This document shows, piece after piece, positions 5,740 through 56,958 of a stretch of 64,000 nt of DNA. The stretch lies in the sequence record MZ501103; one strand, given 5' to 3'. Origin of the DNA: Escherichia phage SelmaRatti. Under the pieces are notes generated by a model. It saw only the letters and a list, made by a program, of their open reading frames with translations, was not told where the DNA came from and searched no databases. Position numbers and translations under genes: made by a program. The stretch's first letter is position 1. Every line of letters starts with the position of its first letter.

Positions 5740-7259
5740 ATATCACTGGCCTGTTCACCTGTTGAATTTTCAGCTTTGTCTTTCTTAGCACGTTTAGGTT
5801 GAGCCGACTTATCCTTCTCAATAGGGATAACGAACTCAGCTTCCATTTGAGATATATCTTCCATTGCTAGGTTGGTAGTGTTATCCATCCGCAAGGTTTC
5901 CCAGTTCATTTTAGGCATAAACTTCACGCTATCAGAAGAACGAGTCTTAACGAAGTCAAACATAATAGCACCTTGACCATTATCAGCTTTTGCAGCATTA
6001 AGATTAGCAGCCATGTCTGCGGAATCAAGAATCCCCTTTGACATACGTGTTCTACCGTCTTGATCGATCTGGTAAGGAGCTACACCAGCCACGTTATGTT
6101 TCTGGCAAATAGATTTGAAAGACGAGCTAACAACCATCTGTTCTTTCCAGTCATACATATCAATGGTTTTAGAATCTGGAAGTCGGGTTTGGTTAATATA
6201 GTCCAGTAAAGCTACTGTAACTTTATCCCCATATCTAGCAACTAATTTATTTAATTCTACGTCAACTGTTGTAATAGACAGCTCAGGATCATAAACAATA
6301 ATCATAGGAGTATGTAGCTCATACCCTTCTATTAGCTTACTTTCCATATCGTAGAAATCACTCATCTTAGCCATTGTGTACTGTTTAACGAAGTTATCGA
6401 AAAGCTCTTCACCACCGTTAAACATCCTGGCTCTAGTTCTGGCTAATCTCAACAGAGCTGCACCTTCTAGAGTATTATTACGCATTGCTAGTGCTGATAC
6501 ACCAGCTAACATGGCTAGATTACGTCTAAATACTTCATGTTCTTTCATCTCAATTGAGAAGTATGGAGCAATATCTCCATTCAAATATTGCTGAACCTGT
6601 ATGTTTGAACAGATAATGGATTTACCGGTACCACGCCAACCACCAAGCAGTAACGTTTCTGTGCGAGCTAAACCAATTTGAGCGTCGAACTCATTACAAA
6701 TACCAAGAGCGATTAAGTTCAGTTTGGTATCTTCTTCTCTCTGGAAAATACGCATGTTATCTGCGTTGAATACTTTTCCAGTATTCGTTACTTTCTCTTC
6801 TAATTTTAAGTGAAGGGAGGCAACTCGGTTAAGAATTTCTCCCTGATCCAGCATTGTTAAATCTTGAAGCACGTCTGTTTCTAGAAGCTTCAGGAATAAA
6901 TCCTGTGTATACTCGGCTTCTAGGACTTCAAGTGCCTGTTCCATGCTAACTTCTGGAATTTGAGTGTTAGCTAAGACGACTAGAGCTTGAGAAAGGCGGG
7001 CGTTCCTATTAGCCTCAAGCATCAGTGCGTCAATGGACGGCATTGTGTTATATTTTTTATAATAATTCTGGACGGCTTGGTAAATTGAGGAGAAAGCGTC
7101 ATTAAAATGATCTTTATGCAGTTTTGAGAATGTTTCCAATGCTATTTGCTTCTGTTCGGAAGCTAGAAGCATCTTCAACACTACAGCTTGCACGTTAAAC
7201 AAGGTCATTCTCCTTTGCACGCTTTCGTGCCTTCTAAATGCAAAAAGGGGAAGGAGCAT
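5736..7259 (-). CDS. replicative helicase (DnaB-like)
   Basis: Walker A GGWRGTGKS; length 507 aa; adjacent to primase; C-terminal tail ...NSTGEQASDI. Confidence 0.8.
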   Translation of the reverse strand: MLLPLFAFRRHESVQRRMTLFNVQAVVLKMLLASEQKQIALETFSKLHKDHFNDAFSSIYQAVQNYYKKYNTMPSIDALMLEANRNARLSQALVVLANTQIPEVSMEQALEVLEAEYTQDLFLKLLETDVLQDLTMLDQGEILNRVASLHLKLEEKVTNTGKVFNADNMRIFQREEDTKLNLIALGICNEFDAQIGLARTETLLLGGWRGTGKSIICSNIQVQQYLNGDIAPYFSIEMKEHEVFRRNLAMLAGVSALAMRNNTLEGAALLRLARTRARMFNGGEELFDNFVKQYTMAKMSDFYDMESKLIEGYELHTPMIIVYDPELSITTVDVELNKLVARYGDKVTVALLDYINQTRLPDSKTIDMYDWKEQMVVSSSFKSICQKHNVAGVAPYQIDQDGRTRMSKGILDSADMAANLNAAKADNGQGAIMFDFVKTRSSDSVKFMPKMNWETLRMDNTTNLAMEDISQMEAEFVIPIEKDKSAQPKRAKKDKAENSTGEQASDI

Positions 7260-37455: not shown

Positions 37456-37530
37456 CGGGGTGTAGTCTAAGGGAGAGGCAGGAGTCTTCTAAATTCCTTT
37501 ATGCAGGTTCGAATCCTGTCACCTCGGCCA
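37456..37530 (+). tRNA. tRNA-Arg (anticodon TCT)
   Basis: Hand-folded cloverleaf: acceptor cggggtg/cacctcg, anticodon loop cttctaa, T-arm gcagg-ttcgaat-cctgt, encoded CCA. Confidence 0.7.
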
Positions 37531-37564
37531 ATTTTATTAACTGTAACTAAAACAAAGGAAATAT

Positions 37565-38512
37565 ATGTTTAATACTAAAAATATGAAAGAACTAACTTCT
37601 GAGCAGAAAGTAATTCGTACTATTAAACGTTGGGGGATTGGTGCTGTAGTTGGTTTAGCAGGTTTAATCCTAGCTTTTAATTCATATACTATTGTTTCTG
37701 ATGGTACGGTTAAAACTCAAACATTCCTGGGTAAAGTAGACCCTAATCCAGTATTACCTGGTTTCCATATTGTAAACCCGTTTGCATCTTTCGATACTTT
37801 CAGTACAAAAGATATTGCTGTAAAATTAGATAAACTTCAGGTTCCTAGTCAGGATAAGTTTAAATCCACTGTTGACCTGACTGTTATGTTACAATTTGAT
37901 GGTTCTAAGGCACCGATCAACCGTATTAATGCAGGTACTCAGGATCAGGCTCTAGATAAGTACGTAACTGAAAAATTACTGTCCACTATTCGTGAGTTCG
38001 GTAAGTCTGTACCTAAAGCACAAGATTTATTTGATGCTAAAATTCAGGCTCAATTGCAAACTGCAATTCAACAGGAAGTTGAAGAGTATGCACGCCCATA
38101 TGGTTACACAGTTAAGCAGGTATTCCTTCAGGATATTACTTTGCCACCGGTAATCATGGAACAGGTACAGAATACCAAAGTTCGTGAAGAACAGGTTAAT
38201 GCTGCTAAAGCTGAATTAGCTCGTGTTGAACAGGAAGCACAGCAAAAAGTTAAACAAGCAGAAGCAGATCGTGAAGCTCGCAACAACCAAGCTATCGCTA
38301 ATGAACGTGACGCAGATGCTAAACTGTACGCAGCTAAGAAAGAAGCTGAAGCTAACGCCGCACTGCAACGTACCATTACTCCTGAGATGATTCGTTGGAA
38401 ACAACTGGAAGTTGAGATGATTCGTGCTCAGAAATATCAAGGTGGTGTGCCGCAGACTGTGGTTGGCACTGGTTACGATGGCCAGATGATTATGGATATG
38501 CGTAATAAGTAA
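37565..38512 (+). CDS. SPFH/band-7 membrane protein
   Basis: N-terminal TM helix, band-7-like core, C-terminal coiled coil. Confidence 0.55.
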   Translation: MFNTKNMKELTSEQKVIRTIKRWGIGAVVGLAGLILAFNSYTIVSDGTVKTQTFLGKVDPNPVLPGFHIVNPFASFDTFSTKDIAVKLDKLQVPSQDKFKSTVDLTVMLQFDGSKAPINRINAGTQDQALDKYVTEKLLSTIREFGKSVPKAQDLFDAKIQAQLQTAIQQEVEEYARPYGYTVKQVFLQDITLPPVIMEQVQNTKVREEQVNAAKAELARVEQEAQQKVKQAEADREARNNQAIANERDADAKLYAAKKEAEANAALQRTITPEMIRWKQLEVEMIRAQKYQGGVPQTVVGTGYDGQMIMDMRNK

Positions 38513-38588
38513 TATCCACGCGTAATATTCGAAGTAAGCCCTGTGTTTCCTGGAGAGCGCAGGCAATTAAATGAATTTATATAAAATT

Positions 38589-38621
38589 TTGCTTGTTTTT
38601 GCGCGTAAAATTTTATATAAT
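38589..38621 (+). promoter_or_regulatory. sigma70-type early promoter
   Basis: TTGCTT then TATATAAT; exact -10 register ambiguous. Confidence 0.45.
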
Positions 38622-38651
38622 ATTTACTCAAATTTGGAAGAATACGTTAAC

Positions 38652-39023
38652 ATGAATACTAATAAGAAAGGAAATATAGGGCTAGGAAGTGCGATTGCTC
38701 ACTTTACTAGTAAAGGTTTGATTGTTTCACTACCTTTAAATGACAGTCAAGATTACGATCTAATCGTAGATATGGGGGGTACTCTAAATAAAGTTCAGGT
38801 GAAATATACCTCCCAAAAGGCACCCTCTGGTAGTTATATTCTAGCTATGAGAAGTACAAGTGGCACTTCTAGAGTAGCGTATAAGACTCTTAATGAAACT
38901 AATATTGATTTAGTGTTTGTGTATACTGATCAGTATCAGTTGTTAATTCCAATTAAGAAATTAACTAATAAAAATCAAACTACCCTTACTAAAGAATTAG
39001 TACAAGAATTCCGAGTTATATAA
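38652..39023 (+). CDS. hypothetical protein, possible PD-(D/E)xK nuclease fold
   Basis: ATG 38652 chosen because the longer ORF starts inside the promoter; DYDLIVD...KVQVK motif. Confidence 0.4.
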   Translation: MNTNKKGNIGLGSAIAHFTSKGLIVSLPLNDSQDYDLIVDMGGTLNKVQVKYTSQKAPSGSYILAMRSTSGTSRVAYKTLNETNIDLVFVYTDQYQLLIPIKKLTNKNQTTLTKELVQEFRVI

Positions 39024-39025
39024 AA

Positions 39026-39115
39026 GGAAGAATACGTTAAAAGGTAAACGAGCTGATTGCTAATCAGTAGCTCTGAAATATAGCCTTGTGGGTTCGATTC
39101 CCACTTCTTCCGCCA
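39026..39115 (+). tRNA. tRNA-Ser (anticodon GCT), type II
   Basis: Acceptor ggaagaa/ttcttcc, anticodon loop ttgctaa, long variable arm, T-arm gtggg-ttcgatt-cccac, encoded CCA. Confidence 0.7.
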
Positions 39116-39121
39116 AACATA

Positions 39122-39196
39122 GGGTCGGTAGCTTAAAGTTAAAGCGGTGGCCTCATAAGCTAACGAGTAGGAGTTAGATTCTCCTCCGACCCACCA
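39122..39196 (+). tRNA. tRNA with anticodon CAT (Met or Ile2)
   Basis: Acceptor gggtcgg/ccgaccc perfect, anticodon loop ctcataa, T-arm aggag-ttagatt-ctcct, encoded CCA. Confidence 0.6.
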
Positions 39197-39211
39197 AATT
39201 AAGGAAATAAG

Positions 39212-39379
39212 ATGTATAGACATCCACCTCCGCCAACACGTCGTTCTAGAGAAGTTATCCTCATGGAATTGACTAAAAACTTCAAGGCAACTCTTGAAGA
39301 TAGAGATTTAGGCACAGATGAAGATGTTGATTTCATCTGTAAACTATTAAAAATGAAACTGGAGAAACAACATGGCTAA
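39212..39379 (+). CDS. small hypothetical protein (55 aa)
   Basis: RBS aagga; stop overlaps next ORF start. Confidence 0.3.
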   Translation: MYRHPPPPTRRSREVILMELTKNFKATLEDRDLGTDEDVDFICKLLKMKLEKQHG

Positions 39380-39578
39380 TCCTGAAATTACCGCACAACG
39401 TTTCATGCTTAAAGGCATGATTGCTGAGGCAGGTATGACTCAAGAAGTTGTAGATTTTCAAAAGCAATTCCTCAATATTCTCACTCAAGCCAAAGAGCTA
39501 GGAGAGAAAGAACATGGAGCAGCAATTATGGCTATATCTCTTATTAGTCTAGACTTGGCTGAAGAATCAGGAGTTTAA
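39372..39578 (+). CDS. hypothetical protein (68 aa)
   Basis: ORF. Confidence 0.4.
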   Translation: MANPEITAQRFMLKGMIAEAGMTQEVVDFQKQFLNILTQAKELGEKEHGAAIMAISLISLDLAEESGV

Positions 39579-39608
39579 CTCCTCCAAGCAGAAATTTTAA
39601 AAATGTAC

Positions 39609-39638
39609 TTGCCTTTTGCTTTAAATTTCTGATATAAT
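39609..39638 (+). promoter_or_regulatory. sigma70-type early promoter
   Basis: TTGCCT-18-TATAAT. Confidence 0.5.
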
Positions 39639-39649
39639 AGTTATATAAA

Positions 39650-39943
39650 TTGATGAGAGGAATCAGAATGTCAAAACGTGTTACAGCAACTGGTATTGAA
39701 AGTGTAATCTGCAAATCCTGGGAAGACAGGGAAGGTGAGATTGAATGGCTTTATTTCTATGATGTAGAACTTCTACCGGAAGTTAAAGCTAAATGTATTG
39801 AAGCTGGTATGGCTCCTGATGCTACTGCTGATGTTGAGATTATCATGAATAAGCTAGAGGGTCTGGTAATCACTGTTAGTGATGAGGGCGAAGAAGTCTT
39901 CGAACTTCCGTTCTCCTTAACTGTCACTCCTAAGTTCGACTAA
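39650..39943 (+). CDS. hypothetical protein (97 aa)
   Basis: Promoter 39609-39638, RBS gagagg. Confidence 0.45.
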   Translation: MMRGIRMSKRVTATGIESVICKSWEDREGEIEWLYFYDVELLPEVKAKCIEAGMAPDATADVEIIMNKLEGLVITVSDEGEEVFELPFSLTVTPKFD

Positions 39944-39979
39944 CTAATACAGCACTGAGCAAGTTCTTCAAAATTTTAC

Positions 39980-40008
39980 TTGCTCAGTGCCATAAAACTT
40001 GATATAAT
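39980..40008 (+). promoter_or_regulatory. sigma70-type early promoter upstream of tRNA-Tyr
   Basis: TTGCTC-17-TATAAT; -35 lies inside an 11-bp inverted repeat. Confidence 0.5.
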
Positions 40009-40071
40009 AGTTATCTAATTTGGAAACATATTTAAAAGTGTTTAAACTAGTATTTGAATACTTTTAAATGT

Positions 40072-40155
40072 GCATCGTTGGCAGAATGGCTATTGCAGCG
40101 GTCTGTAAATCCGTGCCCTTCGGGGTTGGTGGTTCAAATCCATCACGATGCACCA
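40072..40155 (+). tRNA. tRNA-Tyr (anticodon GTA), long variable arm
   Basis: Acceptor gcatcgt/acgatgc perfect, anticodon loop ctgtaaa, variable hairpin gccc-ttcg-gggt, encoded CCA. Confidence 0.7.
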
Positions 40156-40172
40156 AATTAAAGGAGCTGCTG

Positions 40173-40445
40173 ATGCATCCTGAAAACTTCTTTATTTACT
40201 GCGAGGATAAGTAGCTGAAACGTAGAATTAACAAAGTCTATCATTATCGTGCTAGTCAACAGCCTTATATATACGCTTTTGACGGTGATCACATTCCACT
40301 AGAACAATTATCCTGTGATTACATGATATTGAAGAACTTTGACGAGACAAAGATCTCAAGCGTTCATAATCGACAGAATCCATTAACGTGGAAATATAAG
40401 AAGAAAAAGAAAGGCATCAAATTCTTAAAAAATGTAGTTGCTTAG
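40173..40445 (+). pseudogene. ORF with strong RBS interrupted by in-frame TAG at codon 14 (40212-40214); pseudogene or amber read-through
   Basis: aaggag then ATG 40173; 13 codons, TAG, then 76 further sense codons in frame. Confidence 0.3.
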
Positions 40446-40466
40446 TTTCCAAAAGTTCTGTATAAT
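40438..40466 (+). promoter_or_regulatory. sigma70-type early promoter upstream of tRNA-Cys
   Basis: TTGCTT-17-TATAAT then cataaattgaa. Confidence 0.55.
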
Positions 40467-40514
40467 AATTACATAAATTGAACTGGAGAAGCAACATGAC
40501 AGAACAAGGTAAAT

Positions 40515-40587
40515 CGACCGTTGGCTGAATTGCTTAGGTGAAGGATTGCAAATCCTTTTTATGTGAGTTCAAATCTCATGCGGTCGT
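40515..40587 (+). tRNA. tRNA-Cys (anticodon GCA)
   Basis: Acceptor cgaccgt/gcggtcg (one G-U), anticodon arm aagga-ttgcaaa-tcctt perfect, T-arm gtgag-ttcaaat-ctcat. Confidence 0.65.
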
Positions 40588-40596
40588 CTAAATTTT

Positions 40597-40680
40597 AGGG
40601 TCGTTAGCCAAGTGGTTTGGCGGCGGATTGTTAATCCGTGTCGAAAGACAACGTAGGTTCGATTCCTGCACCCGCTGCCA
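40597..40680 (+). tRNA. tRNA-like gene, candidate Asn (GTT); acceptor stem imperfect
   Basis: D-arm, anticodon arm gcgga-ttgttaa-tccgt, T-arm and CCA fold well, but acceptor pairs only 4/7 and an extra gtc-gaaa-gac hairpin sits in the variable region. Confidence 0.35.
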
Positions 40681-40700
40681 TCTTAATAGAGGATTTCGAA

Positions 40701-40865
40701 ATGAAAGTATTTCGATTAGTAGTAAGTGATCGACGTTCTAGCAAAGATCGTTCGAAGTATACCTTAGCCCACTATGGTAAAGATGAAAAAGAAGTAATGG
40801 TGGAGTTTGGGATTAATCATCGCTACTTAGAAGTTTACTCTATTAAGGAAGTTTATCCGTATTAA
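40701..40865 (+). CDS. small hypothetical protein (54 aa)
   Basis: RBS agagga then ATG 40701; the longer ORF would start inside the preceding tRNA. Confidence 0.35.
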   Translation: MKVFRLVVSDRRSSKDRSKYTLAHYGKDEKEVMVEFGINHRYLEVYSIKEVYPY

Positions 40866-40943
40866 GGGTCGTTAGCTCAATTGGTTAGTAGCACTTGCCT
40901 TTTAAGCAATAGGTTGAAGGTTCGAGTCCTTCACTACCCACCA
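40866..40943 (+). tRNA. tRNA-Lys (anticodon TTT)
   Basis: Acceptor gggtcgt/actaccc (one mismatch), anticodon loop cttttaa, T-arm gaagg-ttcgagt-ccttc, encoded CCA. Confidence 0.6.
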
Positions 40944-40950
40944 AATTTTT

Positions 40951-41024
40951 GCTCGGTTAGTTTAATGGGAGAACCCCGTCTTTACACGGCGGTTGCGATA
41001 GTTCGATTCTATCACCGAGTACCA
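40951..41024 (+). tRNA. tRNA-Val (anticodon TAC)
   Basis: Acceptor gctcggt/accgagt, D-arm gttt/gaac, anticodon arm ccgtc-tttacac-ggcgg, T-arm gatag-ttcgatt-ctatc, encoded CCA. Confidence 0.75.
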
Positions 41025-41043
41025 ATTAACTCAAAATAAGGAA

Positions 41044-41409
41044 TTGCAAATGCAATTATCAAGCAAGATTCAAGGTTATTTCGGTCATGTGACAATGGAG
41101 TTCGCTATCTCTAAAGGTTGGGATTTCGAGCAAGATCTAGCTGAGTTCTACAAAGATATTGATCTGAACGTACCGTATATGGGACTTTCTACTGGTCAGG
41201 AGATCACAGAAGCCGATGTATTCAAGGCAAGTCAAGGTGAGATAACACCTAGTTTTGCCACTTTTTGGAGTGGCTTCACAATTAAAGAAGAAGCTCCAGA
41301 TGATGATGTATTTATGCAAAGCATGCACTCTGGGAGTTCTGATATGTTATTTGTTAAAGATGTACGACATATCCAAGAAGTGGTAAAAACGTATTTGCAA
41401 AATGCTTAA
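41044..41409 (+). CDS. hypothetical protein (121 aa)
   Basis: ORF with RBS aaggaa. Confidence 0.45.
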   Translation: MQMQLSSKIQGYFGHVTMEFAISKGWDFEQDLAEFYKDIDLNVPYMGLSTGQEITEADVFKASQGEITPSFATFWSGFTIKEEAPDDDVFMQSMHSGSSDMLFVKDVRHIQEVVKTYLQNA

Positions 41410-41423
41410 TTTCTTGTTATAAT
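41395..41423 (+). promoter_or_regulatory. sigma70-type early promoter driving unannotated RNA region
   Basis: TTGCAA-17-TATAAT then tataaattgatg. Confidence 0.5.
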
Positions 41424-41756
41424 ATTTATATAAATTGATGCGAAAATAGCTGCCTAGATACCAGGTGTATGACGTCTACACTAGCAGAGCTACCGAAAAA
41501 GAGATCCTCAGGATAAACGTCGTAGCAAAATTAGTCTGGTATCCATCAATTTAGTTCACTAAGGTATTAGCTCGACCTAGGACTGGCTGCCAAAAAGCAC
41601 GACCCCTACGACTCGGGAGAAGTTCTAGATTAGTCCACTAGATTCAGCGGCAACTGAATAGTGTATCGGGTTTGTGAAGAGCGGCTATCCTCTACTGGCT
41701 AATGTATGAGGTTAGTACGCACACCGAGCTAATAGCCTTAGTAAACTAAAGAATTT

Positions 41757-41831
41757 GGGCGAATAGTGTCAGCGGGAGCACACCAGACTTGCAATCTGGG
41801 AGGGAGGGTTCGAGCCACTCTTTGTCCACCA
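41757..41831 (+). tRNA. tRNA-Ala (anticodon TGC)
   Basis: Acceptor gggcgaa/tttgtcc (G-U pairs incl. G3-U70), anticodon arm ccaga-cttgcaa-tctgg perfect, T-loop ttcgagc, encoded CCA. Confidence 0.6.
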
Positions 41832-41955
41832 AATTAAAAAGAATGCGCGCGATTGACGGAATAGGTATACGTGTAAGCCTTAGAAGTTGAATTTTGAGGG
41901 TTCGAATCCCATCGAGGCGTAACTGCCTGGTGTGATAGAGGCATCATCTTATTAT

Positions 41956-42046
41956 TGGAAGAGCAAATCGAATTGGCGACGAAAACCGCTGGGAAAGTGG
42001 CTGACTGGTAAAACGGCTTGAGAGTTCAAATCTCTCCTCTTCCGCC
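41956..42046 (+). tRNA. type II tRNA-like gene (Leu/Ser class?), anticodon arm not resolved
   Basis: Perfect acceptor ggaagag/ctcttcc, T-arm gagag-ttcaaat-ctctc, CCA, D-loop gaattggcgac; no canonical anticodon stem found by hand. Confidence 0.35.
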
Positions 42047-42059
42047 AAACAATTTATAA

Positions 42060-42154
42060 GGTAGGTCAATCCAACGGCTGGCGATGGACTCCGACTTGAA
42101 ATCGGTTGATCGTAGTGATACGGTGTAAGGGTTCGATCCCCTTACCTACCTCCA
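42060..42154 (+). tRNA. tRNA-Ser (anticodon TGA), type II
   Basis: Acceptor ggtaggt/acctacc perfect, anticodon loop cttgaaa, variable hairpin cgta-gtga-tacg, T-arm aaggg-ttcgatc-ccctt, CCA. Confidence 0.65.
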
Positions 42155-42628
42155 AATCTTGAAGTATGCCGGAATCGGTAGACGGGGCTTCCTAAAGGGC
42201 GTAAGGGGAACATCCACTCCTCATAAGATACCCGAAAACGAGGCTGAGATAAATGGTCTATCTCGTGAAGGTTCAAGTCCTTCTGCTTCTTGATACCTCT
42301 ATGGCTCAAAGTGTAACGGTGCTATTTGATGCTCTTAGTAAGACTTTCCCGACATGCGTTCGGGGGTAAGCTGCTAAGACTAGAGTAGAAGAGTTTCGGA
42401 GAGCCGCCACAATTGAAAATTCGTACTCGTCTTGAGCTGCGTGCAATAGGAGATAACTTGATTAGTATTCTAGAACATGCTAATTGAGGAAGGTTTCTCT
42501 AACCCTGCGAGTTTTCAATTGTGGCTATATCATAATTGGTTAATGATCCTGATTGTGAATCAGGCCTTCCAAGCCTCGCTGAGTAGGGTTCGATTCCCTC
42601 TAGCAGCTCCAACTTTAAGGAAACATTT

Positions 42629-52527: not shown

Positions 52528-52956
52528 ATGTCTGATCGTTTCTACACTCAAATGGCTGAACATTTTCGTATACCACATTACGAGCTAAACATTGCACTCC
52601 GTGATCATGACTCTCCTGAGTACAAAAAGCTCGAAAAGAAAGCGGAAAAATCTATTGATACAAAGGTAGGTGCATCTATGTCTAAGGGCAAAAAGTTAAC
52701 TCGTCTTGATCTTAATAAAATTTTAACTGAACTTTTGGGTACTGATATTGAAGGTGCTAAATTACCGCTTCTTGTACTAGAGACTATGATTAAAAAGGTC
52801 AAAAATAAAGAGTATAAAAAGGTAGAAGTCCCAGAAGGAAGATTGAAGGCTCCTTATCAGGAAGCATTAACCGAGTGTTTGGGTGTAAATCTTGATCTGA
52901 GCACCGCAACCGTAAAAACTATGAAAAACTTCTTAGAGGCCATTAATAAATTGTGA
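52528..52956 (+). CDS. hypothetical protein (142 aa)
   Basis: Promoter 52466-52494, RBS agagagg. Confidence 0.45.
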   Translation: MSDRFYTQMAEHFRIPHYELNIALRDHDSPEYKKLEKKAEKSIDTKVGASMSKGKKLTRLDLNKILTELLGTDIEGAKLPLLVLETMIKKVKNKEYKKVEVPEGRLKAPYQEALTECLGVNLDLSTATVKTMKNFLEAINKL

Positions 52957-53459
52957 TTACTATGGAAAGATTATTAGAGGTACTAGAATATCATGAAGAT
53001 GGTACTCTAACCTGGAAACCTAGACCGGAAGGTACAAGAGGTTGGAATACTAGCCTTAACAATATGCCTGCTGGGTCTATTAATGCTGATGGCTATCTAA
53101 TGCTCTCTATTGATGGAGAACGAATACTTGCGCATAGAGCAATCTTCTTTATGCACAAAGGCTATTTACCTGATATAGTAGATCATGATGATACCAATAC
53201 GCTAAACAATCGTATTGGTAACTTAATAGAAGCTACAAAAGCTCAAAATGCTTTTAATAGGAAATCGGCTAATAAAAATAACCTATTGGGATTAAAAAAC
53301 ATATCTCAAAGAGGGAAGTCTTTTAGAGTAAAAATCTCTAGGGCAGGAATCAATTATATGAAAACGTGCAGTTCTTTGGAAGAAGCAATTGCATGGAGAG
53401 ATAAAAAACTAGAAGAACTCCACGGTGAGTTTGCCAGCAAAGGAAATAAAAATGTCTAA
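52953..53459 (+). CDS. HNH homing endonuclease (AP2/HNH_3-like)
   Basis: GYLMLSI...HRAIFFMHKGYLPDIVDHDDTNTLNNRIGNL. Confidence 0.7.
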   Translation: MITMERLLEVLEYHEDGTLTWKPRPEGTRGWNTSLNNMPAGSINADGYLMLSIDGERILAHRAIFFMHKGYLPDIVDHDDTNTLNNRIGNLIEATKAQNAFNRKSANKNNLLGLKNISQRGKSFRVKISRAGINYMKTCSSLEEAIAWRDKKLEELHGEFASKGNKNV

Positions 53460-53747: not shown

Positions 53748-53780
53748 AAAGCCTGATCAGCTAAGATCAGGCTTTTATTT
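53748..53780 (+). terminator. rho-independent terminator
   Basis: agcctgatc...gatcaggct then tttatttt. Confidence 0.6.
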
Positions 53781-53783
53781 TAC

Positions 53784-53812
53784 TTGCTTTTTACTAAAAA
53801 TTTTGGTATAAT
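53784..53812 (+). promoter_or_regulatory. sigma70-type early promoter
   Basis: TTGCTT-17-TATAAT. Confidence 0.55.
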
Positions 53813-53839: not shown

Positions 53840-54085
53840 ATGTTAGCAGAGCAAGCAAAACGTTTAGCTAGGATAAATAGAGTTGCACTCTTTAAGAGCC
53901 GAAAGAAAACGTATAGATGGGTTGAGCGGAGGATAGTATCTTCTGTAGAGGCTGGGGGTTCTTTTATACAATTTAATCGTGATGAAATTAGTTATGAAGC
54001 TATAAAAGCCCTCTATAAAGATGGTTATACTCTCCAATTATCTAATGAGTATGGCACAACTATTTTAACTGTTATTTGGGAATAA
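53840..54085 (+). CDS. hypothetical protein (81 aa)
   Basis: Promoter 53784-53812, RBS taggagg. Confidence 0.4.
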   Translation: MLAEQAKRLARINRVALFKSRKKTYRWVERRIVSSVEAGGSFIQFNRDEISYEAIKALYKDGYTLQLSNEYGTTILTVIWE

Positions 54086-54951
54086 TTATGAAAAAAGAAT
54101 TTAATGTGCATAAAACACTAGTAGTACCTGATGATGTTAATTTATTCTTTGTTGGTGATATTCATGGATGCAACGATTTACTAGAAGATGCACTACAATT
54201 AGCTGGCTATAACGGCAAGAAAGACTGCGTTGTATGCGTGGGGGATTTAATTGATCGAGGCACGCAGAACCTACAAGTTTTAGCCAAATTCCTGTATAAT
54301 CCACGCTTTATCAGTGTCCGTGGAAACCACGACCAGTTTATGATTGTGGGAGATTGGGCTAACTGGATGTATAATGGTGGTATGTGGGCTATGAATGAAC
54401 TAGATGCAGATACCATTAAAAATATTGCCGAAGATATGGCTGAAAAACTTCCAGTATTTCTGACTGTGCTGCATCGTGGCAAGAAATTTGGTGTTGTTCA
54501 TGGTGGTGTACCTTTTACATACAAAGAATGTGGTAACGAAGTAGAAACCCAAGTATGGGATAATCTTATTGCGCAAGTAGAAGCAGCTAAGGAAGACCCA
54601 CATGACCATCCGGGATACCATGTTGAACCATATTTATGGGATCGAGATGTAATCCAAGAAATAGGCTTCTACTTGTCCAAAAATGGTGAGGAACACCCAT
54701 ATTTCCAGCGTTATGCAGGATTTAAAGAAAAATACATGGTAGAAGTGCCAGAAGTTAAGGGGGTAGATTTTGTGTTCCACGGACACACTGGGGTTCCTTA
54801 CCCACTTCTTTATAAAAACCGTGTTTATCTTGATACTGGCGGTGTTTTCAACGGGCAGTTGACGGTTGCGCAAGTTAATGATGAAACTGGCAAAATCACA
54901 ACATTTACCACGCTTCGCGAAGATAGCTGTGGCATACAGAGGATTCTTTAA
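54076..54951 (+). CDS. Ser/Thr protein phosphatase (calcineurin-like metallophosphoesterase)
   Basis: GDIHG, GDLIDRG, GNHD motifs. Confidence 0.75.
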   Translation: MGIIMKKEFNVHKTLVVPDDVNLFFVGDIHGCNDLLEDALQLAGYNGKKDCVVCVGDLIDRGTQNLQVLAKFLYNPRFISVRGNHDQFMIVGDWANWMYNGGMWAMNELDADTIKNIAEDMAEKLPVFLTVLHRGKKFGVVHGGVPFTYKECGNEVETQVWDNLIAQVEAAKEDPHDHPGYHVEPYLWDRDVIQEIGFYLSKNGEEHPYFQRYAGFKEKYMVEVPEVKGVDFVFHGHTGVPYPLLYKNRVYLDTGGVFNGQLTVAQVNDETGKITTFTTLREDSCGIQRIL

Positions 54952-55472
54952 TGAAAGTCTGCTTTTGGAGCGATCTACACTTAGGACATGAAAATATTAC
55001 TAAATTCAGACCAATCTTCTCTACTATGGAAGAGCATGATGAATTTATTATGGATACTATTACATCCATGAAAGATAAGCGTACAGTATTTTATATTTTA
55101 GGGGATGCATTTGTATCTAGAAATGGTTTGGAGAAATTCGAAAAACTCTTTAGTAATGTTAGAACTACATTAGTTTTGGGGAACCACGACTTAGAACGAG
55201 AAGGGTTATCTTTCAAAGACTTAGTGGGAGTTGTAGATAACGTACAATCCCTAGTTAAGTATAAAAACTTTTGGCTTTCCCATGCTCCAGTACATCCAGA
55301 AGAGTTAAGGGGCAAGAAGAACTTACATGGGCATACTCACTTTGAGTTAATGGGGGACCACCGTTATATTAACGTTTGTGTAGAGTATGCAAAATCACCA
55401 GTACGCCTGGAAGACATCATGAATGGTAAGTACACTTCTCATGATAAAACTAGCTGGATGTTAAATGTCTAA
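54951..55472 (+). CDS. metallophosphoesterase family protein
   Basis: SDLHLGH...GDAFVSRNG...GNHD...GHTH motifs. Confidence 0.6.
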   Translation: MKVCFWSDLHLGHENITKFRPIFSTMEEHDEFIMDTITSMKDKRTVFYILGDAFVSRNGLEKFEKLFSNVRTTLVLGNHDLEREGLSFKDLVGVVDNVQSLVKYKNFWLSHAPVHPEELRGKKNLHGHTHFELMGDHRYINVCVEYAKSPVRLEDIMNGKYTSHDKTSWMLNV

Positions 55473-55580
55473 GTATATAGCTGAGGTTATTATTAAACGA
55501 ATTATACAGGCGATAGCAATACTTATAATCATTTGTATTGCTATTGGCACAGGATTAGGCATTTTAATTGAAAGTTTTAT

Positions 55581-55609
55581 TTGCTAAAATGCCTAAGTTT
55601 CTGTATAAT
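55581..55609 (+). promoter_or_regulatory. sigma70-type early promoter
   Basis: TTGCTA-17-TATAAT. Confidence 0.55.
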
Positions 55610-55639: not shown

Positions 55640-56071
55640 ATGAACAAAGTTGATAAAGCTCTAGTTTTCGCAGCAGCAGATAAGTTTGAACAAGTTAAGG
55701 CAACTTTCCGAACCTTGTTCCAGTCTTACGTTCAGGATAAGTCTAATCCTATCTCTGAACGTTTGATGGTCTGGGAATGTCATGCATGCAATGCCTTATT
55801 AATTGCTGATTATCGTAGCGATATAGATAAAGATCTGTGCGAAATTCTTATCGCTGAGGAGGCAGAACGTTATCAGTTAATCTCTTTCCAAGATTTGGCA
55901 GAGCATATCATTCCCGATGATCTTTGGGATAAATACTATGGTGATCCTGAAGATGAAGGAATGACTCCAGAAGCATGCATTGAGCTGATCTGCAAAGATC
56001 ATCCTGAAATTGCAGAGAAATTTGAAAAAGTTTTTGCTTCTGAGTTCTCCGGCGTTGTTAACGATTGGTAA
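55640..56071 (+). CDS. hypothetical acidic protein (143 aa)
   Basis: Promoter 55581-55609. Confidence 0.45.
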   Translation: MNKVDKALVFAAADKFEQVKATFRTLFQSYVQDKSNPISERLMVWECHACNALLIADYRSDIDKDLCEILIAEEAERYQLISFQDLAEHIIPDDLWDKYYGDPEDEGMTPEACIELICKDHPEIAEKFEKVFASEFSGVVNDW

Positions 56072-56131: not shown

Positions 56132-56425
56132 ATGAGAGAGGAAATTCTAATGGAAAACATGACTAAAGACTTCGACGCCTCTAACCTTACCAAGACTGAA
56201 ATGGCCAATGTATTAGCAATTCTTCTCGACATGCAAGGATTTGAGGGGCAACTGATGAAAATGTCCATCCCAGCAATGAAAAAGATGTATGATTCTCTTA
56301 ATAAGAACGCTATGGCCTTTAACTTAGCGAAACAAGAGGCACGATTTGCTAAAGAGCATCAAGCAGTGGCAGAACGCCGAGCAGCTAGCTTTGAGCGTGA
56401 AGTCAAGCAATTAAAGAAAAAATGA
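56132..56425 (+). CDS. hypothetical protein (97 aa)
   Basis: Promoter 56090-56118. Confidence 0.45.
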   Translation: MREEILMENMTKDFDASNLTKTEMANVLAILLDMQGFEGQLMKMSIPAMKKMYDSLNKNAMAFNLAKQEARFAKEHQAVAERRAASFEREVKQLKKK

Positions 56426-56958
56426 TAACACAAGAAAGATTAAAAGAGCTATTTGAATACCGCCAGGAAACGGGCGAGTTTATAAGGAAAGTCAGTAGAG
56501 GGCGAGGTAAAGCAGGTAGTATTGCTGGTAGTCCTGATAAGGATGGTTATATATTTATTGGAATAAATAGAAAAAGATATGCAGCCCATAGATTAGCCTT
56601 TTTGTATATGGAGGGGTATATTCCAAATCTAGTACACCACTTAAATAATATAAGAAAAGATAATAGATGGTGTAATTTAAAAGATTGTACGTCCCAAGAG
56701 AATAATCGTAGCAAAATCGCTCAATCTAATTCGGGGTACTTAGGAATTACTTGGAAAAAAGATAGACAACAATGGAGAGTCCAGGTCAGAAGCGCCGAAA
56801 GTATTACAGTACACGGAGGCTACTTTAGGTATCTAGATTTAGAGTTGGCAGTTCAAAGAGCTAATGAACTACGTTTAGAACTACATGGGGCTAACGCTGT
56901 TATAGAAACTTTTGATCATACAAAACCCTTACCTACTTTAGAGGAATTAAATAAATGA
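56422..56958 (+). CDS. HNH homing endonuclease (AP2/HNH_3-like), paralog of 50226-50762
   Basis: GYIFIGI...HRLAFLYMEGYIPNLVHHLNNIRKDNRWCNL; both ends align with the 50226 product. Confidence 0.7.
   Translation: MITQERLKELFEYRQETGEFIRKVSRGRGKAGSIAGSPDKDGYIFIGINRKRYAAHRLAFLYMEGYIPNLVHHLNNIRKDNRWCNLKDCTSQENNRSKIAQSNSGYLGITWKKDRQQWRVQVRSAESITVHGGYFRYLDLELAVQRANELRLELHGANAVIETFDHTKPLPTLEELNK

What the first reader, a model, noticed from the sequence alone, without database searches (positions are those of the whole stretch)
54076..55472. Two adjacent metallophosphoesterase genes
A lambda-PPase-like Ser/Thr phosphatase (GDIHG/GDLIDRG/GNHD) is followed by a second, shorter calcineurin-fold enzyme with a divergent motif set. 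The second may target nucleotides or signalling molecules rather than proteins, making it a possible anti-defence candidate.
Basis: inference. Interest (0 to 1): 0.4.

Follow-up and report, generated by a model that had tools for sequence, protein, structure and literature searches.

The report
Phage T5 early phosphatase–phosphoesterase gene pair
These are the long-annotated phage T5 early genes for a lambda-type protein phosphatase and a small metal-dependent phosphodiesterase; both look like intact enzymes, but the pair is ordinary for T5-like phages and no anti-defence role is shown.

Summary
The window is a T5-like phage (92-95% nt identity to T5, DT57C and GEC_vB_N5). The two ORFs are orthologues of T5 orf5c/T5p034 (PP) and orf4c/T5p033 (PE), annotated since 2004.

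A non-protein phosphodiester substrate is therefore plausible. An anti-defence role is untested: the published "anti-defence" phage MPE (A10ZJ24 Gp48, the Bxb1 gp47 family) proved to be a different family.

New details:
- T5-like phages carry two discrete PE alleles (~53% identical) that assort independently of the PP alleles.
- Small ORFs are inserted between PP and PE in some relatives.
- Some PE homologues carry probable inteins in catalytic motifs.

Verdict: already known, low interest.

The parts
53748..53775 (+). Intrinsic-terminator-like hairpin after the thioredoxin gene; upstream boundary of the transcription unit
   Evidence: An 11-bp stem followed by a T-rich tail. T5 annotates a promoter after the thioredoxin gene at the equivalent place.
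53784..53812 (+). Sigma-70-type early promoter: TTGCTT, 17-nt spacer, TGg-TATAAT (extended -10)
   Evidence: Read directly from the sequence. It corresponds to the 'putative promoter' annotated upstream of T5p035/orf6c in T5. The simple scan did not list it, because the -35 hexamer matches only 3 of 6 positions.
53840..54085 (+). 81-aa ORF, orthologue of T5p035/orf6c, function unknown; first gene of the unit
   Evidence: phrog_7354, E=1.2e-50; the PHROG label 'major head protein' is implausible for an 81-aa early protein. No Pfam hit. 80-89% identical across the T5-like loci that carry it; no match in L028, L032 or L053.
54088..54951 (+). PP: lambda-PPase-clade Ser/Thr(/Tyr) metallophosphatase, 287 aa, orthologue of T5p034/orf5c. 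The mechanical ORF start is TTG 54076.
54951..55472 (+). PE: minimal binuclear metallophosphoesterase, 173 aa, of the COG4186 / phrog_547 / aq_1665 family; orthologue of T5p033/orf4c. Start overlaps the PP stop (TAATG); GAGG Shine-Dalgarno 8 nt upstream.
55465..55587 (+). 40-aa hydrophobic (single transmembrane-like) ORF overlapping the end of PE; last gene before the next promoter. Not annotated in the T5 records examined.
   Evidence: phrog_21849, E=5.4e-26. 85-100% identical in most T5-like loci, whichever PE allele they carry; absent from four of them (L010, L028, L032, L053).
55581..55609 (+). Next early promoter (TTGCTA, 17-nt spacer, TATAAT), homologue of T5 promoter P-F30; start of the following unit (DUF7020 gene, 55640..56071)
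   Evidence: Scan match, 10 of 12 positions. T5 annotates 'promoter P-F 30' at the same position. DUF7020, E=2.2e-45.

Best explanation
The finding is the conserved early-gene pair of T5-like phages (Demerecviridae). Both genes are transcribed from one sigma-70 early promoter as a four-gene unit: 81-aa ORF, PP, PE, 40-aa membrane ORF.

PP is a lambda-phosphatase-type binuclear metalloenzyme. It most likely removes phosphate from phospho-Ser/Thr/Tyr proteins, and like lambda-PPase it may also act on small phosphoesters. It carries a lineage-specific ~50-60-aa helical subdomain and a C-terminal beta-hairpin that could set substrate choice.

PE is a minimal (173 aa, no cap domain), catalytically intact binuclear metallophosphodiesterase of the COG4186 / aq_1665 / phrog_547 family. 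By homology with D29 Gp66, it most likely hydrolyses phosphodiester bonds in nucleotides or at nucleic-acid ends. Candidate substrates are 2',3'-cyclic phosphates and other small phosphodiesters. It does not look like a protein phosphatase.

Shown here: the identity of both genes, the intactness of their active sites, the folds, family membership, purifying selection and the operon layout. Inferred: the metal dependence, the substrates and the biological role. The two enzymes are ancestral neighbours in the T5 lineage, but they do not behave as an obligate co-evolving pair.
For: - Source and orthology: 92-95% nt identity to T5 and relatives, with both genes annotated there.
- Gp66 is reported to use mono- and diesters and cyclic nucleotides (PMC12287305 citing Dutta 2014).
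- dN/dS is 0.03-0.09 for both genes.
- Unit boundaries: terminator and promoters.
- The pair, again overlapping, is kept in a distant T5-like contig (PP 38%, PE 52% identical).
- All 26 T5-like viral loci have PP upstream of PE.
- Independent assortment: all four PP-allele x PE-allele combinations occur.
Against: - No biochemical or genetic data exist for T5 PP or PE in the searchable literature.
- The Gp66 paper itself could not be read. Its result is taken from its title and from a citing paper.
- Gp66 is only distantly related to PE (about 30% identity in the profile alignment), and substrate specificity in this superfamily is notoriously labile.
- The nearest solved structure, aq_1665, has no assigned function.
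- The next structural neighbours include true nucleases (MPE/PdeM, Mre11) and a lipid-nucleotide pyrophosphatase (LpxH), so a 2',3'-cyclic or small-phosphodiester substrate is not singled out.
- PP's helical insertion has no matched counterpart, so its substrate could differ from lambda-PPase's.
Confidence: 0.6

Rival explanations
1. PE is a DNA-end or single-strand DNA nuclease (Mre11/SbcD- or PdeM/MPE-like) that works in phage DNA replication, recombination or repair, rather than a small-molecule phosphodiesterase.
For: - The best NCBIfam hit is the ligase-associated endonuclease PdeM (TIGR04123, E=5.7e-09).
- In non-T5 phages the annotated immediate neighbours are 5'-3' exonuclease (x4), ATP-dependent DNA ligase (x4), DNA polymerases A and B, RecA, RNR and dCMP deaminase.
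- In Acinetobacter phage PhT2 the homologue lies between gp47 and gp46 (Mre11/Rad50).
- D29 gp66 lies near a DnaB-like helicase and a Cas4 exonuclease.
- Probable inteins in the catalytic motifs of some homologues. From general knowledge, inteins are typical of replication and repair enzymes.
Against: - The PdeM score is 35.7 bits against a curated cut-off of 150.
- PE is a bare 173-aa core without the capping or DNA-binding domains of Mre11/SbcD.
- In the window, PE is not beside replication genes but among small early genes of unknown function.
- From general knowledge: T5 already encodes other nucleases, including the metallophosphatase A1.
- The one studied member of the family was reported as a cyclic-nucleotide phosphodiesterase.
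Confidence: 0.2
2. One reading: PE (alone or with PP) is a counter-defence enzyme. It would destroy a nucleotide immune signal (cyclic oligonucleotides, cADPR isomers, Ap4A-type alarmones), or heal RNA ends cut by abortive-infection nucleases.
For: - It is an early-expressed, small, catalytically intact phosphodiesterase.
- Its family member hydrolyses cyclic nucleotides in vitro.
- The locus is mosaic. There are two discrete PE alleles (~53% identical) in an otherwise 97-99% identical neighbourhood, and variable small ORFs are inserted between PP and PE. This pattern is often seen for host-interaction genes.
Against: - No experiment links T5 PP or PE to any defence system.
- The published anti-defence phage metallophosphoesterase (A10ZJ24 Gp48) is in the Bxb1 gp47 / phrog_221 family, unrelated to PE beyond the superfamily (hhalign probability 8.5%).
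- Other recently described phage counter-defence phosphatases are Macro-domain or HAD-type, not MPP.
- The family is huge (20,589 representatives) and includes chromosomal bacterial and archaeal members.
- Its phage neighbours are mostly replication and nucleotide-metabolism genes.
- Both PE alleles are under strong purifying selection with identical active sites.
- Mosaicism is general in this region. PP and neighbouring genes also have discrete alleles, and homing HNH genes lie nearby.
Confidence: 0.12
3. PP and PE form a functional two-enzyme module, either as sequential steps on one substrate or as a physical complex. This would explain their conserved adjacency and translational coupling.
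For: - Adjacency with overlapping stop/start in the window, in T5 and in a distant T5-like contig.
- All 26 T5-like loci keep the order PP then PE.
- In the only 3 of 54 non-T5 loci that have a PP-like gene within 6 kb (L036, L038, L044), it lies within one gene of the PE homologue, and the gene order varies.
- From memory (Keppetipola & Shuman 2007, not checked here): lambda-PPase itself has 2',3'-cyclic phosphodiesterase activity, so the two chemistries could be linked.
Against: - 51 of 54 non-T5 loci with a PE homologue have no PP-like gene nearby.
- PP and PE alleles assort independently; all four combinations occur.
- Unrelated small ORFs (99 aa phrog_14979; 122 aa phrog_7810) are inserted between them in many T5-like phages, breaking the coupling.
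- No complex prediction could be run with these tools.
Confidence: 0.15

Closest known systems
Phage T5 orf5c / T5p034 (putative Ser/Thr protein phosphatase 'PP') and orf4c / T5p033 (putative phosphoesterase 'PE'); GenBank AY509815, AY692264, AY543070
   Same: Direct orthologues: 95.5% (PP) and 96.5% (PE) amino-acid identity. Same order, same 1-nt stop/start overlap, same flanking promoters and neighbours.
   Different: Only strain-level differences. The window also has two HNH homing-endonuclease genes (52953..53459 and 56422..56958) that T5 lacks at those sites.
Bacteriophage lambda Ser/Thr protein phosphatase (NinI, PDB 1g5b)
   Different: PP is 287 aa against 221 aa. The extra residues form a helical subdomain of about 50-60 aa between motifs IV and V (helices at residues 157-207; 62 residues, 158-219, are unaligned in the phmmer match) and a C-terminal beta-hairpin (270-286). 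PP is not an equivalog of E. coli PrpA/PrpB (97 bits against a cut-off of 326). Its substrates are unknown.
[quoted passage not shown] 2014, PMID 25307893)
   Same: Same family as PE: both are in phrog_547 (E=4.1e-54 and 4.1e-52). Full-length hhalign match, probability 99.5%, including the family-specific SDLHxGH and HGHTH motifs.
   Different: About 30% identity. Gp66 is 199 aa with extra loops, has an actinophage host, and sits next to a DnaB-like helicase rather than a PPase. Its biochemistry is taken second-hand.
Aquifex aeolicus aq_1665 (PDB 1xm7), structural-genomics protein of unknown function; COG4186
   Different: A cellular, hyperthermophile protein of 195 aa with no known function, so it adds no functional information.
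Bxb1 gp47 / A10ZJ24 Gp48 phage metallophosphoesterases (recombination directionality factor, replication-essential probable exonuclease; reported counter-defence nuclease)
   Different: A different family: phrog_221 against phrog_547. hhalign of the PE profile against gp47 gives probability 8.5%. BLASTP of D29 gp66 against gp47 is not significant. A10ZJ24 Gp48 matches gp47's termini, not PE's. Their functions cannot be transferred to PE.
PdeM / Pseudomonas putida MPE (ligase-associated Mn2+-dependent ssDNA endonuclease, TIGR04123, PDB 6nvo)
   Different: 35.7 bits against a cut-off of 150. There is no ligase or Lhr helicase next to PE in the window.

Membership tests
Calcineurin-like metallophosphoesterase superfamily (Pfam PF00149), for PE | Five motifs that supply the binuclear metal site: DxH, GD, GNH[D/E], H, GHxH | tested here: met
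   D8-L-H10, G51-D52, G77-N78-H79-D80, H111 and G127-H128-T-H130. H10, D52, N78, H79, H111, H128 and H130 are invariant in 65 homologues and D8 is at least 90% conserved.
Calcineurin-like metallophosphoesterase superfamily (Pfam PF00149), for PE | Score above Pfam's gathering threshold, and the beta-sandwich MPP fold | tested here: met
COG4186 / phrog_547 / aq_1665-like small MPPs, for PE | Full-length match to the family profile and to its solved member; family-specific residues (H13 in DxHxxH; SHxPxH115; R120; H126-G-H-x-H) | tested here: met
COG4186 / phrog_547, function of the studied member D29 Gp66 (2',3'-cyclic nucleotide phosphodiesterase) | Hydrolysis of 2',3'-cNMP or bis-pNPP by the purified protein | not testable with these tools
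   Only homology was tested. The enzymology needs an assay.
PdeM, ligase-associated DNA-damage-response endonuclease (TIGR04123), for PE | Score above the curated cut-off; genomic association with an ATP-dependent ligase and an Lhr-type helicase | tested here: not met
   35.7 bits against a cut-off of 150. No ligase or helicase gene within about 3 kb in the window.
Bxb1 gp47 / A10ZJ24 Gp48 phage MPE family (phrog_221), for PE | Sequence or profile homology beyond the shared superfamily motifs | tested here: not met
   hhalign probability 8.5%, with only the GHTH motif aligned. PE hits phrog_547 and gp47 hits phrog_221, with no cross-hit.
PPP-type / lambda-PPase family, for PP | GDxHG, GDxxDRG and GNH[E/D] motifs plus downstream His ligands; lambda-PPase fold | tested here: met
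E. coli PrpA/PrpB protein phosphatases (NF008516 / NF007425 equivalogs), for PP | Score above the equivalog cut-off | tested here: not met
   97.3 bits against 326, and 79.7 bits against 332.
ApaH symmetrical Ap4A hydrolase (TIGR00668 / NF001204), for PP | Score above the curated cut-off; ApaH-type cap domain | tested here: not met
Known phage enzymes that destroy immune signalling nucleotides (Acb1, Apyc1, ring nucleases and others) | Homology to such an enzyme, or demonstrated cleavage of a signal | not tested
   No anti-defence protein library is offered here. PADLOC holds defence models, not anti-defence ones, and gave no hit. The literature searches found no MPP of this family with such a role.

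The most novel reading that the evidence does not exclude
PE, possibly together with the adjacent PP, is a counter-defence or host-takeover phosphodiesterase of T5-like phages. It would remove a nucleotide-based signal or a 2',3'-cyclic-phosphate RNA end produced by an abortive-infection system. The two discrete PE alleles, which recombine freely among otherwise near-identical T5-like genomes, would reflect adaptation to different host defence repertoires.
Probability: 0.1. Interest if true: 0.6.

Novelty: already known. Interest (0 to 1): 0.18.

Why it matters
As it stands, the value is in annotation. These are the T5 PP and PE genes. PE should be named a COG4186 / phrog_547 (D29 Gp66-like) metallophosphodiesterase. 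It should not be called a second Ser/Thr phosphatase, as several GenBank records do. It should also not be equated with the Bxb1 gp47 / A10ZJ24 Gp48 family, which one paper lumps with Gp66.

The family is very large: more than 20,000 representatives at 50% identity, and more than 1,000 phage records. It has essentially no defined biological role, so a clean substrate assignment for any member would propagate widely. If the allele mosaicism reflected host-specific selection, the locus would be a useful handle on T5-like host range, but nothing here shows that.

Tried and rejected
1. The 2025 EMBO Rep "anti-defence phage phosphoesterase" (A10ZJ24 Gp48) looked at first like a functional precedent for PE. 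I rejected it. Its primers encode MTERIVV..D10 and end in ..WEV*, like Bxb1 gp47. gp47 is phrog_221 and has no profile similarity to PE.
2. The Bxb1 gp47 replication/exonuclease data (PMC11795197) cannot be transferred to PE, for the same reason.
3. The phage "phosphatases" that counter aRES (Adpp) and Kongming (T5 Dmp) are Macro-domain and HAD-type enzymes, not these genes.
4. The scan of bacterial and archaeal genomes found chromosomal homologues (30-46% identity) but no conserved operon. The largest "neighbour" clusters were antisense-ORF artefacts of my simple gene caller in high-GC DNA.
5. PADLOC gave no hit for any of the four proteins of the unit.
6. The long (430-514 aa) split PE homologues have no Pfam intein hit. 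The intein reading rests only on the junction sequences.
7. The D29 Gp66 and Savinov 2012 papers are not held and could not be read.
8. Literature searches for T5 PP/PE, COG4186, and NinI with defence returned nothing relevant.
9. I considered whether PP might really be an ApaH-type Ap4A hydrolase because of its helical insertion. I rejected this as the primary reading, because lambda-PPase is much the closer match.
Full report
**What is there**

The window is a T5-like phage (family Demerecviridae). The 1.9 kb around the finding is 92-95% identical at the nucleotide level to Salmonella phage GEC_vB_N5, Escherichia phages DT57C and BB1, and T5 itself. In total 439 phage records match.

In T5 the two ORFs are orf5c/T5p034 ("serine/threonine protein phosphatase", PP) and orf4c/T5p033 ("phosphoesterase", carrying the PF00149 and COG4186 notes, PE). 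They were deposited in 2004 in the early C-region and complete-genome records. The window copies are 95.5% and 96.5% identical in protein to T5's.

Both ORFs are at the stated coordinates.
- The listed TTG start of ORF1 (54076) lies inside the preceding ORF. The T5 annotation and the 287-aa length point to ATG 54088.
- PE's ATG shares a base with PP's stop codon (TAATG), and a GAGG Shine-Dalgarno sits 8 nt upstream.
- Both genes are real and constrained. The Pfam and PHROG matches are significant, and dN/dS against five T5-like orthologues is 0.03-0.09.

**Transcription unit**

- A terminator-like hairpin (53748-53775) follows the thioredoxin gene.
- Next comes a TTGCTT, 17-nt spacer, TGgTATAAT promoter (53784-53812; read, and annotated as a promoter at that place in T5).
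- Four tightly packed genes follow: an 81-aa ORF (T5p035/orf6c, phrog_7354, function unknown), PP, PE, and a 40-aa hydrophobic ORF (55465-55587, phrog_21849) that overlaps the end of PE.
- The next strong promoter (55581-55609) is the homologue of T5 P-F30. It starts the DUF7020 gene.

**PP**

- PP matches lambda phosphatase 1g5b at E=2.9e-34 in two blocks separated by about 60 unmatched residues.
- A 49-sequence alignment shows D24, H26, D53, D56, R57, N80, H81, H138 and H233 invariant.
- The extra residues form a helical subdomain (helices at 157-207) and a C-terminal hairpin (270-286).
- This long form extends to homologues only about 38% identical, many of them from T5-like phages (Pectobacterium My1 and DU_PP_V, Serratia Slocum, Yersinia phiR2-01).
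- PP is not an equivalog of PrpA/PrpB or of ApaH.

**PE**

It fails. H10, D52, N78, H79, H111, H128 and H130 are invariant in 65 homologues and D8 is at least 90% conserved. The motifs are the canonical MPP set rather than a divergent one. What PE lacks is the PPP-specific GDxxDRG arginine.
- The family adds its own conserved residues: H13, P113, H115, E118, R120, H126, D136, R138, Y139 and E145.
- The model is very confident (pLDDT 96.0, pTM 0.91). It is a bare MPP core with no cap domain.
- The best NCBIfam hit is PdeM, but far below its cut-off (35.7 against 150 bits).

**Which studied proteins are really related to PE**

- The PE family profile aligns with mycobacteriophage D29 Gp66 over its full length (hhalign probability 99.5%, E=3.2e-23). 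Both proteins fall in phrog_547.
[quoted passage not shown] 2014, as titled and as summarised in PMC12287305). I could not read the paper itself.
- Bxb1 gp47 is a recombination directionality factor, needed for DNA replication, with weak exonuclease activity (PMC11795197). It is in phrog_221 and has no profile similarity to PE (probability 8.5%).
- The "anti-defence" MPE A10ZJ24 Gp48 (PMC12287305) has gp47-like termini, judged from its cloning primers.
- The anti-defence precedent therefore does not apply to PE, even though that paper discusses Gp66 and gp47 as one conserved group.

**Distribution and context**

- tblastn finds PE homologues in 1,034 phage records. They include T5-like phages, Acinetobacter and Vibrio T4-like phages, Kuravirus podophages, Staphylococcus Kayviruses, SPbeta, jumbo phages and actinophages.
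- An exhaustive profile search finds 20,589 representatives at E<=1e-3 and 13,183 at E<=1e-10. Chromosomal homologues occur in many bacteria and some archaea, without a conserved operon that I could detect.
- In 52 non-T5 viral loci most immediate neighbours are small ORFs without a Pfam match. The annotated neighbours are dominated by replication, repair and nucleotide metabolism: 5'-3' exonuclease x4, ATP-dependent DNA ligase x4, RNR x2, PolA x2, PolB, RecA, dCMP deaminase and NUDIX.
- In Acinetobacter phage PhT2 the homologue lies between gp47 and gp46. In Staphylococcus phage JD007 and Escherichia phage ES17 it lies among small unknown genes.

**Is the PP-PE pairing meaningful?**

For a link:
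- All 26 T5-like viral loci have PP upstream of PE.
- A distant T5-like metagenomic contig (PP 38%, PE 52% identical) keeps dnk-Clp-holin-endolysin...PP-PE...DUF7179, again with overlapping PP and PE. The pair is therefore ancestral in this lineage.
- In the three non-T5 loci with a lambda-PPase-like gene within 6 kb (L036, L038, L044), that gene is within one gene of PE, in varying order. This is a weak hint of linkage.

Against an obligate partnership:
- Only 3 of 54 non-T5 loci have such a gene at all.
- T5-like phages carry two discrete PE alleles. Allele A is at least 92% identical to the window's copy. Allele B is about 52% identical and 196 aa long, with all catalytic residues kept.
- They also carry two PP alleles (about 95% and about 77-79% identical). 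All four combinations occur.
- Allele type does not follow backbone divergence. L020 has PP 97% and DUF7020 99% but PE 53%. L032 has a backbone of 76-80% but PE 92%.
- Allele B always comes with an extra ORF between PP and PE (99 aa, phrog_14979, in L020). L032 has a different one (122 aa, phrog_7810), plus an HNH gene after PE.
- Mosaicism is not peculiar to PE. HNH_3 homing-endonuclease genes flank the unit in the window (52953..53459 and 56422..56958) and are variably present in relatives. That offers an ordinary mechanism for allele shuffling.

**Most likely mechanism**

The promoter type and the T5 map position indicate that both enzymes are made early in infection.

PP is most likely a Mn2+-type phosphoprotein phosphatase like lambda NinI, with a lineage-specific helical module that may select substrates.

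PE is most likely a small binuclear phosphodiesterase acting on nucleotide or nucleic-acid-end phosphodiesters, with 2',3'-cyclic phosphate as the leading candidate by analogy with Gp66.

Identity, fold, active-site integrity, selection and operon structure are shown here. Substrates and biological role are inferred.

I rate the alternatives as follows:
- Nuclease: about 0.2.
- Counter-defence signal or RNA-end enzyme: about 0.1.
- Obligate PP-PE module: about 0.15. This one partly overlaps with the others.

I found no data on T5 PP or PE function. Recently described phage counter-defence phosphatases belong to other folds.

**Verdict**

The anti-defence idea is unsupported speculation. The feature has been annotated for about twenty years, so it counts as already known and is of low interest. 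The modest new points are:
- PE is correctly placed with D29 Gp66 / aq_1665.
- PE is separated from the gp47/Gp48 family.
- T5-like phages show a two-allele mosaic at this locus.
- Some PE homologues carry probable inteins inside catalytic motifs.

Noticed in passing
window 52953..53459 and 56422..56958 (+ strand): Two HNH_3 homing-endonuclease genes (168 and 178 aa; Pfam E=1.3e-12 and 5.4e-11) flank the PP/PE unit. T5 itself lacks them at these sites, while other T5-like phages have one or the other at 96-98% identity (L020, L021, L030). They may drive the allele mosaicism seen in this region.
   Followed up: partly
L020-L030, L053 (allele B) against window 54951..55472 (allele A): T5-like phages carry two discrete PE alleles of about 52-53% amino-acid identity, with almost nothing in between (in the tblastn identity bands only 3 of 1,034 records fall between 60 and 90%). 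They are embedded in 97-99% identical flanks and combine freely with two PP alleles (about 95% and about 77-79%).
   Followed up: yes
L020:5712-6011 and L032:5633-6001: Unrelated small ORFs are inserted exactly between PP and PE in other T5-like phages, each with overlapping start/stop codons: 99 aa (phrog_14979) and 122 aa (phrog_7810), both of unknown function. The window and T5 have none.
   Followed up: partly
window 55465..55587 (+ strand): A conserved 40-aa hydrophobic ORF (MSKYIAEVIIKRIIQAIAILIIICIAIGTGLGILIESFIC; phrog_21849) overlaps the 3' end of PE. It is not annotated in the T5 records examined. It is 85-100% identical in most T5-like loci and absent from four (L010, L028, L032, L053).
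   Followed up: partly
window 53840..54085 (+ strand): The 81-aa first gene of the unit (T5p035/orf6c) falls in phrog_7354, which is labelled 'major head protein'. That label has propagated into RefSeq annotations of DT57C, NR01 and others. For an 81-aa early-region protein this is almost certainly a mis-annotation.
   Followed up: no
proteins P0249, P0277, P0280, P0295 (also P0311, P0329, P0338, P0379): PE-family homologues of 430-514 aa match the profile in two halves separated by a ~300-aa insertion. The four aligned (alignment A5) have intein-like junctions (C..TE[ILV]LT ... [TN]GN|C) at two different sites: inside motif V (HGH|..|CH) and at motif III (GNH). None of the five scanned (P0249, P0277, P0280, P0295, P0379) has a Pfam intein-domain hit.
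   Followed up: partly
window 37456..42611 (+ strand): A cluster of 10 tRNA genes (Arg, Ser x2, Met, Tyr, Cys, Lys, Val, Ala, His), as expected for the T5-like tRNA region.
   Followed up: no
L005 (Acinetobacter phage vB_AbaM_PhT2) 4992-5582: In this T4-like phage the PE homologue (196 aa) is inserted between the gp47 (Mre11-like) and gp46 (Rad50-like) recombination-nuclease genes.
   Followed up: no
L053 (Salmonella phage SH9) about 6001-6592; H33 (MET_P1-88): PE is split into two pieces in a few T5-like records (annotated 'phosphoesterase (x2)'). This is either a frameshift pseudogene or a sequencing error.
   Followed up: no
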